From IMG/VR virus record IMGVR_UViG_643348547_000007: a DNA stretch of 29,004 nt. One strand, given 5' to 3'. A model generated the notes under the pieces. It did not search any database. It was not told where the DNA came from and saw only the letters and a list, made by a program, of their open reading frames with translations. This DNA comes from a virus (taxonomy: Duplodnaviria; Heunggongvirae; Uroviricota; Caudoviricetes). Shown in pieces: positions 3,022-29,004 of the stretch. The first letter of the stretch is position 1, and each line of letters begins with the position of its first letter. Made by a program: the position numbers and the translations under genes.

Positions 3022-3912
3022 TCAGGCTGCCAGATCATCGTTTCCGATGGAAGCATAATAAGCTTTTTCTGCTTCTGCCGGAGGAGTATGGCCCAGCCTT
3101 TCCAGCAATCGTCGATTGTTATACCAGTCCACCCACGTGAGTGTGGCCAGTTCCACTTCTGCACGGTTTTTCCAGCTCTTACGGTGTATTACCTCCGCTT
3201 TGTAAAGACCATTGATGCTCTCCGCCATCGCGTTGTCATACGAGTCGCCTGTACTTCCTGTTGATGCCAGTAATCCGGCTTCCTTAAGCCGCTGTGTGTA
3301 GGCCAGCGATACATACTGAGAACCTTTATCACTGTGATGGACCGTGCCGGACGGTCGACGGGCCCATAACGCCTGCTCCAGTGCATCCAGCACGAATGTC
3401 GTTTCCATGGACGATGAGACCCGCCACCCCACGATGTATCCGGCAAACACATCAATGATGAACGCCACATAGACGAAGCCCCGCCATGTGCTGACGTAAG
3501 TAAAATCAGCCACCCACAGCTGGTCAGGTCGTTCTGCCACGAACTGACGGTTTACGCGGTCGCCTGCGGCAACGGCTTTCCGGCTGATGGTCGTACGGAC
3601 CTTTTTACCCCGGAGAACACCGGCAAGTCCCATAACCGCCATGAGACGTGCCACAGTGCATCTGGCCACTCTGATACCTTCCCGTAACAACTGACGCCAG
3701 ACTTTACGCACACCGTATACCTTGTGATTTTCATCGTATACGCGCTGTATCTCTTTCTTCAGCCAGTCATCGCGCTGCGCACGGGCACTGCGTTTATCCG
3801 GATGATGTCGCTGTTGCTGACAGTGGTAATACGTTGACGGGGCAATATGCAGTTCGCTGCATAGCGGTCCGACCCCGTACTGCTCACGCAGCTTATCCAG
3901 CAGTGGCATCAT
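3022..3912 (-). CDS. IS629 OrfB (DDE transposase catalytic part, normally made as an OrfAB frameshift fusion), 296 aa
   Basis: ORF overlaps the orfA end in the -1 frame, as is typical of the IS3 family; DDE-type integrase-core sequence. Confidence 0.9.
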
Positions 3913-4235
3913 TTTTTCCAGAGGCGGTCGAACTCCGCCTTCGCAAAATAAGCGGAAGCCTGGCGAAGGATATCGTTACTGCGGCGCAGTTCACGATTTT
4001 CACGTTCCAGCTCTTTCAGACGCTGACGTTCAGCGGTGGTGAGCCCTCCATCACCGCCCCCGGTATCCCGCTCATGCTGGCGAACCCAGACACGCAGAGT
4101 CTCCGGCGTACAGCCAATCTTTGGAGCAATGGAACAAATTGTCGCCCATTGTGAGTCATATTCGCTCTGACTTTCCAGAACCATACGGACTGCCCGTTGA
4201 CGGACTTCGGGGGAAAAACGAGTATTTTTAGTCAT
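3909..4235 (-). CDS. IS629 OrfA (transposase N-terminal, HTH/leucine-zipper part), 108 aa
   Basis: [21 protein letters not shown]... translation; identical ORF present in the second IS copy at 28199-28525. Confidence 0.9.
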
Positions 4236-4240
4236 CCTGT

Positions 4241-4894
4241 TTACCTCTTTCTCAGGAAGTTTAGTCTCCAGGATTCCCGGGGCGGTTCAACCAGACGTTC
4301 GTACATTACACCTTCGGCAACAAGGCCATTGCTGGAAATAGCTTCAGGAGCATCATTCTCGTTAGCTGGTCGCCAGTGAACAAACTGAGGGGCAATTTCT
4401 CCTACTTCCTCGGCAATCAATCCATAGAATCCCCAATCGCGCCTGTCATTTTCGCATTGCGACCTGTACCACACAGGGCGCATCCTGAAAATGAGATCGG
4501 CGTGCTCCGAATCTATCGTCTCTACTGAATGTTTATAGCGGATAGACGATGTGGACCGCAGTACAGACGAAATTGCGGGGTCAGGATTAAGATAAAGGTT
4601 TGCCGCCGCTGTAGTCGTGCCCAATCCCCACAAATAAAACGCTTCACGACCAGTCAGCGGGTAAAAATCTCCACCATAACGACCACTTTCCAGATCGTTC
4701 ACTTCCACTTTGTTTTTCAGCTTATTATCAACTTCAGTTTTTGTGTATCTGGTGCTGATATCCTGCTTTGCACTGGTCATATCAGTCTGAAGCGTTGATA
4801 CTTTTCCGTTAATTGAGGAAATATCTTCCTTGGCTTTACTGACATCTCCCTTTAACGTGGTGATGTCTCCTGGAATTACTGTCGATGTAGCCAT
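4241..4894 (-). pseudogene. Tail-fibre-associated protein with a coiled-coil N-terminus, 3'-truncated by IS629 (native part 4290-4894; last 16 codons are read from IS sequence)
   Basis: Own start with a GAGGGAGA Shine-Dalgarno before ATG 4894; Ser/Thr/Lys-rich heptad-like N-terminus; the ORF runs across the IS629 boundary at 4289/4290. The C-terminal region is loosely reminiscent of fibre intramolecular-chaperone domains (tentative). Confidence 0.55.
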
Positions 4895-25273: not shown

Positions 25274-25476
25274 AACCTCACTCCCAGCGGACGACGGCGA
25301 CGGCGGGTTGTCCCCAGTACCGACTCCGCATCATTGATCGCCCGGTTAAGCTCATCCAGAGAAGCTGCCGTATATTCAATTCTGCGACCATCTTTCTGGA
25401 CAGACACCACCCGTTTACCGGTTAATAAATCAAGGCGCGCCTGACGCAGCGCCTGCAGTTCAGCGACTGTAACCAT
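25270..25476 (-). CDS. W: Head-tail connector protein W, 68 aa
   Basis: Same length as lambda gpW as I recall it; start overlaps the A stop region. Confidence 0.9.
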   Translation of the reverse strand: MVTVAELQALRQARLDLLTGKRVVSVQKDGRRIEYTAASLDELNRAINDAESVLGTTRRRRRPLGVRL

Positions 25477-27388
25477 TCACTCCTCCGGACAGCTTCGCTG
25501 CCAGTTCTTTAAGGGTTGGCCGGGTCGTCTCTTCTTCCCGGGATTTTGCCAGTACAGCCAGATCAAGCTGCCAGCGTTGCACGGACACACGTAATGCCGC
25601 GTAGGCATACACCAGGCAGTCCAGCGCTTCGTTACGCCGCTTTTTGTTATCCCACAGCAGACGCATCTTTCCTTTTTCCCACTTCTCCACAAGCTCTTCC
25701 GCCACCAGTTGCTGCGCCTCTGTCTGCGAAAAAATCTCCGGATCATCAGGAAAACGGATGGCATACGACGTGGCTTCATCCGCAGGCGTGGGATCGGCTT
25801 TCATACGGGCATAGAGAATTTCTTTTGCGGTGTCCGTCCCCACTTCGCACAGATACACGCCCCGCTGATTGCGGGTTTTTGGCATGGTGATCACCGGCTT
25901 GCCATAAACAGATGCACCTTTTACCGGCAGCACCCGGAAAACACCGTGTTTTTTTGACCTCTGATAGACAATTTCGCCATCGATCCCCCCGGTGTCCCAG
26001 CAGACACGGGAAATGGTCATTTCGGTTCCGTCTGCATGGCGGTATTTTTTGTTGATCGCCACATCCACACGTAACAGCGTCTCTTCCTCATCGGGACGCC
26101 CCATAATGATGATTTTATCCACCAGAAAGGCTTCCTCTCCCGGAGCCCATCCCCAGACATACATCTCAAAACGGTTTCGCTGCGAGTCAATGCCCGCCGT
26201 CAGATAAACCACCCGGGCTGGCACCGCCGCCGTGTAATGCACGACCTTATCCATCAGTACCTGGTGATCGAGTTTTTCGCCCACGGCCTCTTCCCAGGTC
26301 TCGCCCAGCGTGGTGTTCACAAAGGTTTTCAGGCCGTTGGGATCTTTCAGTGCATCCAGCCAGTCATAGACTATCTGTACCCAGGTGGTGAACGGACTGT
26401 ACGCCGTCCAGATATGGAACGTGATGGAGCGCGGCGGCGGAATTTCATTATCCGCGGCGCTGAAAAACGTCAGACCGTCACGGGTCCACATCCCCGTGTT
26501 TTCACAGATCCACCGCCCGTTGCTCTGGTCAAGCTCAGACTGATGGATCACGCAGCCATGATGTTCACAGAGGTAGAAAACGCTTTCGGGGCTGTCCTTC
26601 TCCCATTTAAGGCCAAAAGGCGTGGACTCATCGCCAAATTTCAGATACTGCGCCTCCCCACAGTGCGGGCAGGGCACATAAAAACGCATGAAATGCGCCG
26701 ACTCGTTGGCCGCTTTTTCGATCTGGCAGGAGCCTTTTATTTTAGGCGTCGAGCCGCGAATGGATTTTGGCCATACCGAGCCCTCAATACGCTTATCCCC
26801 CAGCAGGGTTGGCGAGCCCTCTTTTTCGACATCCGGCTCGAACGAGGAAAGTTCGTCATAGCAGACCACGTCCACGGATTTTTCACGGTAGTTTTTGGCG
26901 GCAGCGCCGCCCAGGCACCAGAAGCCCACACCCGATGAAAAGCGTTTCAGCGTGATGGTATTATCACGATGTTTACGTCCCAGCCAGGGAGAAAGTTTTT
27001 TCAGGCAGGGAACATCGCGAATCGTCGCCTCCACGTGAGACTTCATAAAATCTTCAGCGGCAGAATCCGTGGGCTGAAAAAGCAGACTGTTTCGGGATTT
27101 ATGCTCAATAAAATACCCGGCGACTCCCAGCAACATCTTTGTATAGCCAACACGGGCAGATTTAATCAGATTAACAGTCCGGATCTGATCATTCCCCATG
27201 CTGTTCATGATGGCGATCTGGAACGGCAGCGTTTTCCATTCTCCCTCACCATATGAAGATTCTTTAGGCAGATAATAATTTTGATCAGCCCATTCAACTG
27301 GCGTCACCGGCAATGCCCTTATCAGGGGCTGTAATGCTGTTGTGACAGCACTCATCATATTATTCAGTTGTTGCTCTGATATATTCAT
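25460..27388 (-). CDS. A: Terminase large subunit A, 642 aa from ATG 27388
   Basis: Collinear with lambda gpA (VEWADQNYYLPKES, Walker A-like region, C-terminal nuclease part). Start set at MNISEQQ, matching lambda's MNIS start, rather than the track's upstream start at 27445. Confidence 0.95.
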   Translation of the reverse strand: MNISEQQLNNMMSAVTTALQPLIRALPVTPVEWADQNYYLPKESSYGEGEWKTLPFQIAIMNSMGNDQIRTVNLIKSARVGYTKMLLGVAGYFIEHKSRNSLLFQPTDSAAEDFMKSHVEATIRDVPCLKKLSPWLGRKHRDNTITLKRFSSGVGFWCLGGAAAKNYREKSVDVVCYDELSSFEPDVEKEGSPTLLGDKRIEGSVWPKSIRGSTPKIKGSCQIEKAANESAHFMRFYVPCPHCGEAQYLKFGDESTPFGLKWEKDSPESVFYLCEHHGCVIHQSELDQSNGRWICENTGMWTRDGLTFFSAADNEIPPPRSITFHIWTAYSPFTTWVQIVYDWLDALKDPNGLKTFVNTTLGETWEEAVGEKLDHQVLMDKVVHYTAAVPARVVYLTAGIDSQRNRFEMYVWGWAPGEEAFLVDKIIIMGRPDEEETLLRVDVAINKKYRHADGTEMTISRVCWDTGGIDGEIVYQRSKKHGVFRVLPVKGASVYGKPVITMPKTRNQRGVYLCEVGTDTAKEILYARMKADPTPADEATSYAIRFPDDPEIFSQTEAQQLVAEELVEKWEKGKMRLLWDNKKRRNEALDCLVYAYAALRVSVQRWQLDLAVLAKSREEETTRPTLKELAAKLSGGVNGYSR

Positions 27389-27869
27389 CGAGTAAATCCG
27401 GTAATTTATCCCCCGCCCGCGCACACTGATTTGCCCCCTTCGCAATAAGGGTTTTCAGATGGTCAAGATGGCGCGGTGTTAAATCAGGAAACTGTCGCTG
27501 CATGGATAAAGGGATGGAATCAAGCGTACTGGATAACGCCATTGCCAGCTTGCTGAGGGCAAAAATACAGAACCCGGTGTCAATAAGTTTTCCTTTTGAC
27601 ACCTCATTTTTTAACTGCTGTGTAACAGCCTGTTCTGCTGTCAGTTCCCATCTGGCAATAAGCAATTTCTCCTCATAGTCGTCTTCGCTATCGCCATCAG
27701 GCACATCGTTTTTACTTCTTCTCAGATACGATATGTAAAAATCGCGCCAGGCATCCAGATCCAGTTGCCCTCGCTTATTCGATATCGGGGCACCCGGCAA
27801 TTTCTGCAATCTGCGAAGCTGGCGATCGGTCAGACTTAAATGCCTGGCAACTTCAGTCTGCGTAGCCAC
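27360..27869 (-). CDS. nu1: Terminase small subunit (Nu1-type) with N-terminal HTH; GTG start
   Basis: C-terminal two-thirds resemble lambda Nu1; the N-terminal DNA-binding region differs from lambda; GTG at 27867-27869 with GAGG upstream; 3' end overlaps A. Confidence 0.8.
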   Translation of the reverse strand: MATQTEVARHLSLTDRQLRRLQKLPGAPISNKRGQLDLDAWRDFYISYLRRSKNDVPDGDSEDDYEEKLLIARWELTAEQAVTQQLKNEVSKGKLIDTGFCIFALSKLAMALSSTLDSIPLSMQRQFPDLTPRHLDHLKTLIAKGANQCARAGDKLPDLLDEYIRATTE

Positions 27870-27917
27870 TCCTCACCTCGCAAAAAACTCTCACCTCACA
27901 ATCACAACAAAACCGGT

Positions 27918-28017
27918 CATGTCCGGTTTTAGTGTCTATTTTTTGCGCATGTCCGGTTCATGGAAAGCATGTTTTTATATTTTTCATATGGTTAACTTGC
28001 AGAGAAACCGGACATGG
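27918..28017. promoter_or_regulatory. Candidate cosB: three copies of the 11-bp motif CATGTCCGGTT (two direct at 27918 and 27948, one inverted at 28007) separated by an AT-rich stretch
   Basis: Motifs read directly from the sequence; the location between cosN and the small terminase gene matches the layout of terminase-binding R sites and an IHF bend site in lambda cosB. Confidence 0.45.
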
Positions 28018-28053
28018 ATCCCGGAAAATTTTCATAAATAGTGAAAATCCGCG

Positions 28054-28065
28054 AGGTCGCCGCCC
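28054..28065 (-). other. cosN cohesive-end site (minus-strand GGGCGGCGACCT, identical to the lambda 12-nt cohesive end)
   Basis: Exact 12-mer; flanking sequence on the Nu1 side (CGCGGATTTTCACTATTTATGAAAATTTTCCGG) is near-identical to the start of the lambda genome as recalled. Confidence 0.85.
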
Positions 28066-28144
28066 CGTAACCGGTCGGATCGCCGGAAAGGACCCACGAA
28101 AATGATAATGATTATCATCTATATAAGGTTTATCACAACATGTG
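28066..28144 (-). other. Phage right-end segment (cosQ-containing, about 79 bp) retained between cosN and IS629
   Basis: Sequence closely resembles the last roughly 80 bp of the lambda genome as recalled (GATAATGATTATCATC core); abuts the IS629 inverted repeat at 28145. Confidence 0.55.
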
Positions 28145-28198
28145 TGAACCGCCCCGGGAATCCTGGAGACTAAACTTCCTGAGAAAGAGGTAAACAGG

Positions 28199-28525
28199 AT
28201 GACTAAAAATACTCGTTTTTCCCCCGAAGTCCGTCAACGGGCAGTCCGTATGGTTCTGGAAAGTCAGAGCGAATATGACTCACAATGGGCGACAATTTGT
28301 TCCATTGCTCCAAAGATTGGCTGTACGCCGGAGACTCTGCGTGTCTGGGTTCGCCAGCATGAGCGGGATACCGGGGGCGGTGATGGAGGGCTCACCACCG
28401 CTGAACGTCAGCGTCTGAAAGAGCTGGAACGTGAAAATCGTGAACTGCGCCGCAGTAACGATATCCTTCGCCAGGCTTCCGCTTATTTTGCGAAGGCGGA
28501 GTTCGACCGCCTCTGGAAAAAATGA
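28199..28525 (+). CDS. IS629 OrfA (second copy), 108 aa
   Basis: Translation identical to the copy at 3909-4235. Confidence 0.9.
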
Positions 28526-28939
28526 TGCCACTGCTGGATAAGCTGCGTGAGCAGTACGGGGTCGGACCGCTATGCAGCGAACTGCATATTGCCCCGTCAA
28601 CGTATTACCACTGTCAGCAACAGCGACATCATCCGGATAAACGCAGTGCCCGTGCGCAGCGCGATGACTGGCTGAAGAAAGAGATACAGCGCGTATACGA
28701 TGAAAATCACAAGGTATACGGTGTGCGTAAAGTCTGGCGTCAGTTGTTACGGGAAGGTATCAGAGTGGCCAGATGCACTGTGGCACGTCTCATGGCGGTT
28801 ATGGGACTTGCCGGTGTTCTCCGGGGTAAAAAGGTCCGTACGACCATCAGCCGGAAAGCCGTTGCCGCAGGCGACCGCGTAAACCGTCAGTTCGTGGCAG
28901 AACGACCTGACCAGCTGTGGGTGGCTGATTTTACTTACG
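28522..28939 (+). pseudogene. IS629 OrfB, 3'-truncated or interrupted after about 139 codons
   Basis: Identical to copy 1 OrfB up to ...QLWVADFTY, then unrelated sequence (GVPGVQGGHGCLNEPRVCLEY) to the window end. Confidence 0.8.
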
Positions 28940-29004
28940 GTGTGCCCGGAGTTCAGGGCGGGCATGGATGCTTAAATGAACCGCGAGTCTGTCTGGAATA
29001 TTGA

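What the first reader, a model, noticed from the sequence alone, without database searches (positions are those of the whole stretch)
27918..28017. Three-copy 11-bp motif in the cosB position, paired with a divergent Nu1 N-terminus
CATGTCCGGTT occurs twice in direct orientation (27918, 27948) and once inverted (28007, nearest cosN), separated by an AT-rich stretch. This is the layout expected for small-terminase binding sites flanking an IHF bend site. The Nu1 N-terminal HTH region differs from lambda's while its C-terminal part is lambda-like, suggesting a packaging specificity distinct from lambda (phage-21-like or other).
Basis: partly seen in the sequence, partly recalled or inferred. Interest (0 to 1): 0.45.

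Follow-up and report, generated by a model that had tools for sequence, protein, structure and literature searches.

The report
Terminase binding sites of a prophage
The repeated 11-base motif marks where a lambda-like prophage's small terminase most likely binds to start DNA packaging; the layout is the ordinary lambda one, but the protein-DNA recognition pair is a common type that we did not find described.

Summary
A fourth 10/11 copy lies at 27911-27921 (-). Nothing else in the 29 kb comes close.

The motif sits in a complete lambda-type cos on the minus strand: cosQ, a lambda-identical cohesive end, R3 (bp 50-60), an A+T-rich I1 position (bp 72-84), R2 (bp 108-118), R1 (bp 138-155), then terS at bp 197.

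The TerS C-terminal half is Nu1-like. Its N-terminal winged helix-turn-helix matches neither lambda, 21 nor N15.

About 60 non-redundant loci share this N-terminus ("MATQ-type"), from E. coli to Pseudomonas, Aeromonas and Azospirillum. Nearly all carry TCCGGT(T) at the R3 position. Helix residue 20 co-varies with the base 5' of TCCGG: Arg goes with G, in two separate lineages, and N/D/S/T/E/K with T.

Best reading: a cosB with an apparently undescribed packaging specificity, present in about a fifth of complete E. coli genomes. It is a new member of a known kind and of moderate interest. Binding, IHF dependence and specificity are inferred, not shown.

The parts
28089..28095 (-). cosQ heptamer GGGTCCT, 24-30 nt to the left of the cohesive-end nick
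   Evidence: The sequence is identical to the heptamer upstream of cosN in phage 21 and in all related loci. PMC4669245 describes the 7-bp cosQ as highly conserved.
28054..28065 (-). cosN cohesive-end sequence GGGCGGCGACCT; bp 1 of the mature left end is window 28065
   Evidence: It is identical to lambda bp 1-12. Of the first 45 nt, 43 are identical to lambda.
28006..28016 (-). R3-equivalent TerS site CATGTCCGGTT (bp 50-60; core TCCGGTT at bp 54-60)
   Evidence: Exact copy. It is invariant in 41 distinct cos variants from E. coli prophages. It occupies the same position as lambda R3 (bp 50-65, contacts at bp 55-63; PMC9026076).
27982..27994 (+). Candidate IHF site (I1-equivalent) TTTCATATGGTTA, bp 72-84, preceded by the A/T tract 27969-27981
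   Evidence: It has 2 mismatches to WATCAANNNNTTR, which is not significant alone. The best or near-best match falls at bp 71-86 on the same strand in 10 of 11 complex cosBs, including the known I1 sites of lambda and 21. Relatives L113 and L114 have a perfect AATCAATTGGTTA there.
27948..27958 (+). R2-equivalent TerS site, inverted relative to R3 (bp 108-118)
   Evidence: Exact copy. It is nearly invariant among the 41 variants. R2-like inverted sites lie at the same distance in Klebsiella, Salmonella, Citrobacter and Enterobacter relatives.
27918..27928 (+). R1a site, parallel to R2 (bp 138-148)
   Evidence: Exact copy. The core CCGGACAT is invariant in all 41 variants.
27911..27921 (-). R1b, a 10/11 copy CATGaCCGGTT parallel to R3 (bp 145-155). 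It overlaps R1a to form a palindrome.
   Evidence: It is lost or mutated in 5 of 41 variants. It scores as a terminator-like hairpin on both strands, so its role as a binding site is the least certain of the four.
27360..27869 (-). terS (Nu1 homologue, 169 aa, GTG start at bp 197). The DNA-binding domain is about aa 1-54 and the predicted recognition helix TDRQLRRLQK (aa 14-23) is at 27801-27830.
25460..27388 (-). terL (gpA homologue), overlapping the end of terS
   Evidence: ORF list. Annotation of the 99%-identical phage PhiR12_1. GpA_ATPase and GpA_nuclease domains in relatives.

Best explanation
The motif copies are the R sites of cosB, the packaging-initiation site of a lambda-like cos prophage.

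**Proposed mechanism (inferred by analogy with lambda).**
1. The N-terminal winged helix-turn-helix of the small terminase encoded immediately downstream binds the boxes. The core is TCCGGTT and this sub-type reads ATG-TCCGGTT.
2. A TerS dimer docks on the inverted pair R3/R2. A bend in the A+T-rich spacer, probably made by IHF at bp 72-84, brings the two sites together.
3. R1 adds affinity.
4. The Nu1-like C-terminal half holds TerL (gpA), which nicks the lambda-identical cosN about 50 bp away and starts packaging towards terS.

**Specificity.** The DNA-binding domain and the boxes differ from those of lambda, 21 and N15. The specificity is therefore most likely a further, separate one, shared by the many co-resident prophages of this type.

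**What is shown.** The sequence architecture, the positional match with lambda and 21, conservation of the sites, and co-variation between protein and sites.

**What is inferred.** Binding itself, IHF use, and exclusivity of the specificity.
For: **1. A complete lambda-type cos, in register with lambda and 21.** It has cosQ GGGTCCT, a cohesive end identical to lambda, and 43 of the first 45 nt identical to lambda. R3 is at bp 50-60, R2 (inverted) at bp 108-118, R1 at bp 138-155 and terS at bp 197. In 21 the sites are at bp 50-65, 107-122 and 150-165 with gene 1 at bp 189.

**2. The sites are conserved, the spacers are not.**
- Among 41 distinct cos variants whose TerS is 99% identical, R3 never varies.
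- Only 4 of 33 motif columns are polymorphic, against 37 of 107 columns in the R3-R2, R2-R1 and R1-terS spacers.

**3. The core motif travels with the domain.**
- Of 34 diverse loci with this 'MATQ-type' N-terminus, 29 have TCCGGTT within 160 bp upstream of terS. They include Pseudomonas, Aeromonas, Microbulbifer, Enterobacter, E. whittamii, Azospirillum and several enterobacteria.
- The density there is 8.4 per kb, against 0.24 per kb elsewhere in the same loci.
- 21, N15, and Monarch-type and lambda-type relatives have none. Lambda has one, at bp 41-47, outside the R positions.

**4. Co-variation.**
- With Arg at helix residue 20, the base 5' of TCCGGT is G at 22 of 24 sites.
- With N, D, T, S, E or K it is T at 71 of 74 sites.
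- The Arg/G pairing recurs in an unrelated simple-cosB lineage, L169, whose TerS is 43% identical to the window's. There the tandem R3 (TGTCCGTGTCCGGTT) carries the G. So does an inverted copy inside terS (AAAACCGGACATG), encoded as K-P-D-M where relatives have K-P-E-V.
- Eight loci whose helix lacks the D/E-R..R pattern have no TCCGGT upstream.

**5. The domain is modular.** The same C-terminal half occurs fused to MATQ-type, N15/Monarch-type or lambda-type domains, each with its own R boxes.

**6. The fold fits.**
- The AF2 N-domain has pLDDT about 80.
- A lambda-family TerS DNA-binding domain, 7lxs, superposes at 1.6 A over 48 of 55 residues.
- hhalign puts the helix in register with the Nu1 recognition helix.

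**7. The type is in use.** It is found in 1148 of 5426 complete E. coli genomes, with up to 8 matching places per genome. It is also found in phage records PhiR12_1 to PhiR12_5, deposited with K-12 or E. coli C named as host.
Against: - No binding, cleavage or packaging data exist for this TerS or these sites. Everything rests on sequence.
- The IHF consensus match in this window is no better than chance by itself.
- The Arg20/G pairing rests on only two independent lineages. Most Arg20 loci may be one clade, and DBD plus cosB could simply be co-inherited as one recombination module.
- The R1 palindrome could act as an RNA or DNA hairpin rather than as a site.
- This copy of the prophage has an IS629 80 bp to the left of cosN, so the site may never be used in this strain.
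- The exact R1 copy has the opposite orientation to R1 of lambda and 21.
Confidence: 0.8

Rival explanations
1. The cosB has phage-21 specificity. On this view the boxes are 21-type R boxes and the phage belongs to the known 21 packaging group.
For: The R boxes of 21 are CGTGTCGG (R3) and CATGTCGG (R2 and R1). They differ from CATGTCCGG by one inserted C. The overall layout, including the I1 position, is the same.
Against: - The TerS N-terminus is not 21-like. 21 gp1 aligns with lambda Nu1 over its N-terminus (MKVNKKRLAEIF...), while this protein begins MATQTEVARHL....
- tblastn to 21 covers only aa 64-166.
- The similar strings are offset by 2-3 bp relative to cosN (bp 53-60 in 21, bp 50-58 here). 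PMC4669245 reports that this distance tolerates shifts of only 1-2 bp.
- Relatives with the same domain have TTCCGGTT with no CATG.
Confidence: 0.05
2. The repeats act as nucleic-acid structure or as sites for another factor. On this view they are a hairpin or terminator, or a regulator's operator, in front of the head operon, and not terminase sites.
For: - The R1a/R1b palindrome folds into a 9-bp hairpin followed by a U run on the late-transcript strand (dG -21.4 kcal/mol, z -2.4).
- It is picked up by the terminator scan on both strands.
- A second weak hairpin involves R3.
Against: - R3 and R2 are 47 nt apart and need no hairpin to explain them.
- Relatives keep the motif but not the palindrome: L114 and L118 have a single R1, and variants v14 and v16 lack R1b.
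- The motif co-varies with a TerS helix residue, which a terminator or an unrelated regulator would not explain.
Confidence: 0.07
3. This is an inert relic. The motif is real, but in this strain the cos is a remnant of a defective prophage and does nothing.
For: - An IS629, itself interrupted at 28939/28940, lies 80 bp left of cosN. It separates the head operon from the lysis genes and the late promoter.
- A second IS629 lies at 3495-4289.
- O157 prophages of this general kind are often defective (PMC2669165).
Against: - cosQ, cosN, all the boxes, terS and terL are intact.
- The site could still be used in trans. PMC2669165 reports packaging of a prophage that lacks its own terminase (Sp4), and suggests the terminase of a prophage with a nearly identical cos (Sp14) was responsible.
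- This rival concerns activity in one strain, not what the element is.
Confidence: 0.08

Closest known systems
Bacteriophage lambda cos: cosB (R3-I1-R2-R1) with gpNu1
   Same: - cosQ and the cohesive end are identical, and 43 of the first 45 nt are identical.
- R3, the I1 position, the inverted R2, R1 and the terS start fall within a few bp of the lambda positions.
- The TerS C-terminal half is 46% identical to Nu1.
- TerL is of the gpA type.
   Different: - The R-box sequence differs: CATGTCCGGTT here against CGTTTCC(T/G)TTCT in lambda.
- The N-terminal DNA-binding domain is not matched by the Pfam Nu1 profile or by BLASTP.
- The exact R1 copy is parallel to R2, not to R3.
- An extra overlapping 10/11 copy forms a palindrome.
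Phage 21 cosB with gp1
   Same: The layout is the same. The R-box core CATGTCGG differs from CATGTCCGG by one base, and the I1 core sits at the same place.
   Different: The gp1 N-terminus is lambda-like and unlike this TerS. The similar strings are offset by 2-3 bp relative to cosN.
N15 and the Monarch prophage group (Feiss et al. 2015; PMC4669245)
   Same: - One TerS recognition type occurs with two cosB architectures.
- Here the enterobacterial prophages have the complex R3-I1-R2-R1 form, like Monarch.
- Pseudomonas, Aeromonas and other relatives have a simple R3 just upstream of terS. They also have an inverted copy inside terS about 200 bp away, like the rR2 of N15.
   Different: The recognition helix and R sequence differ (N15 R3 is GAGGTTGTTGTTT). 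N15-type domains occur on the same C-terminal half in other prophages, with their own boxes.
PICI Rpp proteins and cosB-PICI (PMC6739421, PMC9026076)
   Different: Here the domain is part of a full-length TerS that has its own TerL-binding half. It is not a separate hijacker protein, and there is no sequence similarity to Rpp.

Membership tests
Lambda-like cos site (cosQ-cosN-cosB) | A 12-nt 5' cohesive-end sequence closely related to GGGCGGCGACCT | tested here: met
   Window 28065..28054 (-) is identical to lambda bp 1-12.
Lambda-like cos site (cosQ-cosN-cosB) | Conserved 7-bp cosQ upstream of cosN | tested here: met
   GGGTCCT lies at 28095..28089 (-), as in 21 and all relatives.
Lambda-like cos site (cosQ-cosN-cosB) | A repeated R element at about bp 50-65 (R3), with an inverted R2 and a further R1 before terS | tested here: met
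   Copies lie at bp 50-60, bp 108-118 (inverted) and bp 138-155. terS starts at bp 197.
Lambda-like cos site (cosQ-cosN-cosB) | An IHF site (I1) between R3 and R2 | tested here: inconclusive
   The match has 2 mismatches, which is not better than shuffles. It sits at bp 72-84, at the same place and on the same strand as I1 in lambda and 21 and in 10 of 11 complex cosBs. Two relatives have a perfect match.
Lambda-like cos site (cosQ-cosN-cosB) | Terminase binds the R sites and nicks cosN | not testable with these tools
   This needs EMSA or footprinting and in vitro cos cleavage or packaging assays.
Phage_Nu1 small terminase (PF07471) | Match to the family profile above the curated cut-off | tested here: met
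   67.9 bits against a cut-off of 30, but only for aa 49-150 (profile positions 62-163). The N-terminal DNA-binding part of the profile is not matched.
Phage_Nu1 small terminase (PF07471) | N-terminal winged helix-turn-helix DNA-binding domain of the Nu1 fold | tested here: inconclusive
   - The AF2 N-domain has pLDDT about 80, with helices 4-10, 15-22 and 38-54 and a loop (wing) between them.
- hhalign puts the domain in register with Nu1 aa 5-28.
- Foldseek gave no significant hit.
Lambda packaging specificity | Lambda-type recognition helix and R consensus CGTTTCC.. | tested here: not met
   The helix is TDRQLRRLQK against SIRTIQNWQE in lambda. The boxes are CATGTCCGGTT.
Phage 21 packaging specificity | 21-type gp1 recognition helix and R boxes C(A/G)TGTCGG at the 21 positions | tested here: not met
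   The helix differs. The box differs by one inserted base and is offset by 2-3 bp. Cross-packaging was not testable.
N15/Monarch packaging specificity | N15-type recognition helix (..SSLGISVQAFDKW..) and R3 GAGGTTGTTG.. | tested here: not met
   A Monarch-type relative, L119, has GGTTGTTGT boxes and no TCCGGTT.

The most novel reading that the evidence does not exclude
The 'MATQ-type' TerS domain and its TCCGGTT boxes are a fourth packaging specificity of the lambda-like cos phages, and one that has not been characterised.
- It spans Gamma-, Alpha- and Betaproteobacteria.
- It occurs in both complex (IHF-type) and simple-plus-remote-site cosB architectures.
- It has a natural one-residue/one-base recognition switch: Arg20 with G, Asn/Asp20 with T.
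- In E. coli it is the cos type shared by several co-resident prophages of EHEC strains, so it would set who can package whom in those prophage pools.
Probability: 0.55. Interest if true: 0.5.

Novelty: new member of a known kind. Interest (0 to 1): 0.38.

Why it matters
**Packaging specificity decides which DNA a terminase will encapsidate.** PMC4669245 states that only three specificities (lambda, 21, N15) have been documented among lambda-like phages.

**This cos/TerS type is common.** It is present in about one in five complete E. coli genomes, often in several prophages of one cell. If it is a separate specificity, it defines a large cross-packaging group. PMC2669165 suggested this kind of rescue for O157 Sakai, where Sp4 was packaged although it lacks its own terminase, probably by the terminase of Sp14. 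Members of the group would also be insulated from lambda-type and 21-type helpers, and perhaps from satellites that target those types.

**The natural Arg20/G against Asn/Asp20/T pairing gives a cheap, direct test of how a small terminase reads its site.**

The mechanism itself is the textbook lambda one, so this extends a known system and does not change it.

Tried and rejected
- **PDB by sequence:** nothing was found for the N-terminus.
- **Foldseek against PDB:** no hit at E <= 0.001. Only the ranking of weak MerR- and excisionase-type hits is suggestive.
- **IHF consensus scan of the whole window:** 188 matches against 201 expected, so the consensus alone says nothing.
- **Literature search for the motif strings:** only unrelated primer or construct sequences came up.
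- **Other literature searches:**
  - No description of this TerS or cosB type was found.
  - The two Virology 2015 papers from the Feiss laboratory (PMC4461450, PMC5006951) are not held, so prior mention there cannot be excluded.
  - A search for a paper on the PhiR12 phages found none.
- **A fifth, 'R4-like' copy (ACCGGTT at 28069-28076, just left of cosN):** rejected, because it is not conserved among variants.
- **Lambda's own TTTTCCGGTTT at bp 38-48:** noted, but it is outside the R positions and is not conserved in relatives. It was treated as coincidence.
- **Phage-21 membership:** rejected (see the rival explanations).
- **phmmer of the 59-aa domain against 1.84 billion representatives:** only 42 clusters matched, so it adds little beyond the locus scans.

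Full report
**Coordinates.** The prophage late region runs on the minus strand. I number cos positions as for lambda. [quoted passage not shown]

- CATGTCCGGTT occurs exactly at 27918-27928 (+), 27948-27958 (+) and 28006-28016 (-).
- A fourth copy with one mismatch (CATGaCCGGTT) lies at 27911-27921 (-). It overlaps the first copy and gives the near-palindrome AAAACCGGtCATGtCCGGTTTT.
- No other site in the 29 kb matches with fewer than two mismatches.
- It is the only 11-mer present three times within 100 bp in the window. None arose in 200 Markov simulations.
- The spacer between the second and the inverted copy is 70% A+T.

**2. Surroundings.**
- Immediately downstream on the minus strand lies a 169-aa Nu1 homologue (27360-27869, GTG start), followed by a gpA-type large terminase.
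- Pfam Phage_Nu1 matches only aa 49-150 of the Nu1 homologue. BLASTP against lambda Nu1 aligns only aa 73-164, at 46% identity.
- Upstream lies the cohesive-end sequence GGGCGGCGACCT, identical to lambda. Of the first 45 nt, 43 are identical to lambda. The cosQ heptamer GGGTCCT is at 28095-28089.
- An IS629 begins at 28145, which is 80 bp left of the nick and 50 bp beyond cosQ. The cos itself is therefore intact.
- The window is 100% identical to E. coli AR_0013.

**3. Register with lambda and 21.**

| Element | This window | Lambda / 21 |
|---|---|---|
| R3 | bp 50-60 (TCCGGTT at 54-60) | lambda bp 50-65, NMR contacts 55-63 (PMC9026076); 21 bp 50-65 |
| I1 core | bp 72-84 (candidate) | bp 74-86 in both |
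| R2 (inverted to R3) | bp 108-118 | 21 bp 107-122 |
| R1 | bp 138-148, plus 10/11 copy at 145-155 | 21 bp 150-165 |
| terS start | bp 197 | lambda 191; 21 189 |

Sources. PMC4669245 stresses that the cosN-to-R3 distance tolerates shifts of only 1-2 bp.

One difference stands out. The exact R1 copy is parallel to R2, whereas R1 in lambda and 21 is parallel to R3. Only the degenerate overlapping copy has the lambda orientation.

**4. The IHF site.**
- The window's best match (TTTCATATGGTTA, 27982-27994, 2 mismatches) is not significant alone. 1235 of 2000 shuffles of the spacer do as well, and the consensus is not enriched in the window.
- The evidence is positional. In 10 of 11 complex cosBs examined, including lambda and 21 where I1 is established, the best or near-best match lies at bp 71-86 on the same strand.
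- Two relatives, L113 and L114, carry a perfect AATCAATTGGTTA there.
- Among E. coli variants this core is polymorphic at one column only.

**5. Conservation among close relatives.**
- The terS-cos segment occurs in 1148 of 5426 complete E. coli genomes at 80% coverage or more, with up to 8 matching places per genome.
- It also occurs in phage records PhiR12_1 to PhiR12_5.
- 77 IMG/VR loci with 99% identical TerS gave 41 distinct cos sequences.
- R3 is invariant in all 41, R2 is nearly so, and the R1a core is invariant.
- Only 4 of 33 motif columns are polymorphic, against 37 of 107 columns in the R3-R2, R2-R1 and R1-terS spacers.
- R1b is lost or altered in 5 variants. One variant has a 30-bp deletion exactly from R2 to R1a.

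**6.
- Full-length relatives with the same N-terminus (MATQxEVAxHL.L[ST][DE]Rx.R.L) were collected from phage records, from one genome per species, and from IMG/VR.
- In Pseudomonas, Aeromonas, Microbulbifer, E. whittamii, Enterobacter mori, Azospirillum, Roseomonas and others, TTCCGGTT lies 15-35 bp upstream of the terS start. It is often a tandem TTCCGGTTCCGGTT, and a cosQ-like GGGTCCTT lies further upstream. This is a simple cosB like that of N15.
- In Aeromonas phage phiARM81ld, whose record starts at the cohesive end, the motif is at bp 54-68.
- Of 34 diverse loci, 29 have TCCGGTT within 160 bp upstream. That is 8.4 per kb, against 0.24 per kb elsewhere in the same loci.
- Controls: 21, N15, a Monarch-type relative and a lambda-type relative have none. 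Lambda has one, at bp 41-47, outside the R positions.
- Klebsiella, Salmonella, Citrobacter and Enterobacter prophages with this domain keep the complex layout: R3, an IHF-like spacer, an inverted R2, and sometimes R1.

**7. Co-variation.** Residue 20 lies in the predicted recognition helix (TDRQLR-R-LQK in the window).
- Across the non-redundant loci, when residue 20 is Arg the base 5' of TCCGGT is G at 22 of 24 sites.
- When it is N, D, T, S, E or K, that base is T at 71 of 74 sites.
- Most Arg20 loci are enterobacterial and may form one clade. L169, an IMG/VR contig with a Pseudomonas-like simple cosB and a TerS 43% identical to the window's, is separate.
- L169 has helix TDRHLRRLIQ. Its R3 reads TGTCCGTGTCCGGTT. 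Its inverted copy inside terS reads AAAACCGGACATG, which is the window's 11-mer. That copy is encoded as K-P-D-M where relatives have K-P-E-V.
- Eight loci whose helix lacks the D/E-R..R pattern have no TCCGGT upstream at all.
- This is what a direct helix-to-box contact predicts. Co-inheritance of DBD and cosB as one recombination module is an alternative that cannot be fully excluded.

**8. Modularity.**
- The window-like C-terminal half occurs fused to three N-terminal classes:
  - the MATQ type;
  - the N15/Monarch type (MAxLLNKSDMASSIGISVQAFDKW);
  - the lambda/21 type.
- The associated cosBs carry TCCGGTT boxes, GGTTGTTGT boxes and GATCCGTTCTTC-type boxes respectively.

**9. Fold.**
- The AF2 model has mean pLDDT 72.8, with the N-domain at about 80. 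It shows a short strand, helices 4-10 and 15-22, a 13-residue loop, and helix 38-54.
- Foldseek found nothing significant, although its weak top hits are MerR- or excisionase-type winged helices and 6hn7/6hlk.
- hhalign of the MATQ class against the lambda/21/N15 classes aligns window aa 4-28 with Nu1 aa 5-28. That places Arg20 opposite lambda Asn21.
- I take the domain to be a divergent Nu1-type wHTH, and I rate this as supported but not proven.

**10. Mechanism.** The best reading is the lambda mechanism with a different lock and key. A TerS dimer binds the inverted R3 and R2 across an IHF-assisted bend, R1 adds affinity, and the C-terminal half positions gpA on cosN. Binding, bending and exclusivity are inferred.

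**11. Rivals.**
- **21 specificity.** The 21 boxes CATGTCGG differ by one base, but the TerS domain is not 21-like and the strings are out of register.
- **Hairpin or terminator.** The R1 palindrome folds well. This cannot explain R3 and R2, the motif's persistence without a palindrome in relatives, or the co-variation.
- **Inert relic in this strain.** This is possible given the two IS629 copies, but it does not change what the element is.

**12. Known or new?**
- PMC4669245 (2015) states that three packaging specificities (lambda, 21, N15) have been documented among lambda-like phages.
- PMC2669165 aligned 'putative cos' sequences of O157 prophages without analysing R sites.
- My searches found no description of this domain or its boxes. 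Two relevant subscription papers could not be read.
- The architecture and mechanism are canonical, so I class this as a new member of a known kind.
- The family mirrors the N15/Monarch split. It has simple cosBs with a remote in-gene copy, and complex cosBs.

Noticed in passing
window 28145-28939 (+) and 3495-4289 (-): There are two IS629 copies, 100% identical over 795 bp. The copy next to cos starts 80 bp left of the nick, beyond cosQ. It cuts the head operon off from the lysis genes and the late promoter.
   Followed up: partly
window 28940-29004: The IS629 copy at the window end is itself interrupted at 28939/28940. The following sequence begins GTGTGCCCGG, which resembles a group II intron 5' end (GUGYG). 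The same junction is common in E. coli genomes. This was not verified.
   Followed up: no
window 27919-28041 (+): A 40-aa ORF annotated 'hypothetical protein' in the PhiR12 phage records lies entirely inside cosB. It is probably a spurious gene call.
   Followed up: partly
L003, L004, L005, L008, L009, L012-L019, L149, L152, L168-L173; +174 or +183 of terS: In relatives with a simple cosB, an inverted copy (A)ACCGGAA lies inside terS about 200 bp from R3. It is encoded as (K/E/R)-P-E in the acidic linker. This resembles the 'rR2' that Feiss et al. proposed for N15. In L169 it reads AAAACCGGACATG, matching that phage's G-type R3.
   Followed up: partly
IMG/VR variant v39 of the cos alignment, equivalent to window about 27929-27958: One natural variant has a 30-bp deletion running exactly from R2 to R1a. 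This looks like recombination between the direct repeats, and it leaves a two-box cosB.
   Followed up: no
P0056, P0060, P0069, P0073, P0076, P0087 against the window terS; L119, L120: The same TerS C-terminal half (60-90% identical) is joined in other prophages to N15/Monarch-type or lambda-type DNA-binding domains. Each has matching R boxes. This is natural domain-plus-site swapping.
   Followed up: partly
L002 (lambda) bp 38-48; L007 (phage 21) R boxes: Lambda itself has TTTTCCGGTTT between I2 and R3. The R boxes of phage 21 (CATGTCGG) differ from this window's by one base. Both resemblances are unexplained, and they could be coincidence or shared ancestry.
   Followed up: partly
P0105 (2465 aa), P0138 (2911 aa), P0125 (349 aa): Very long proteins match the 59-aa TerS DNA-binding domain in many repeated stretches (19 in P0105). 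Their nature is unknown.
   Followed up: no
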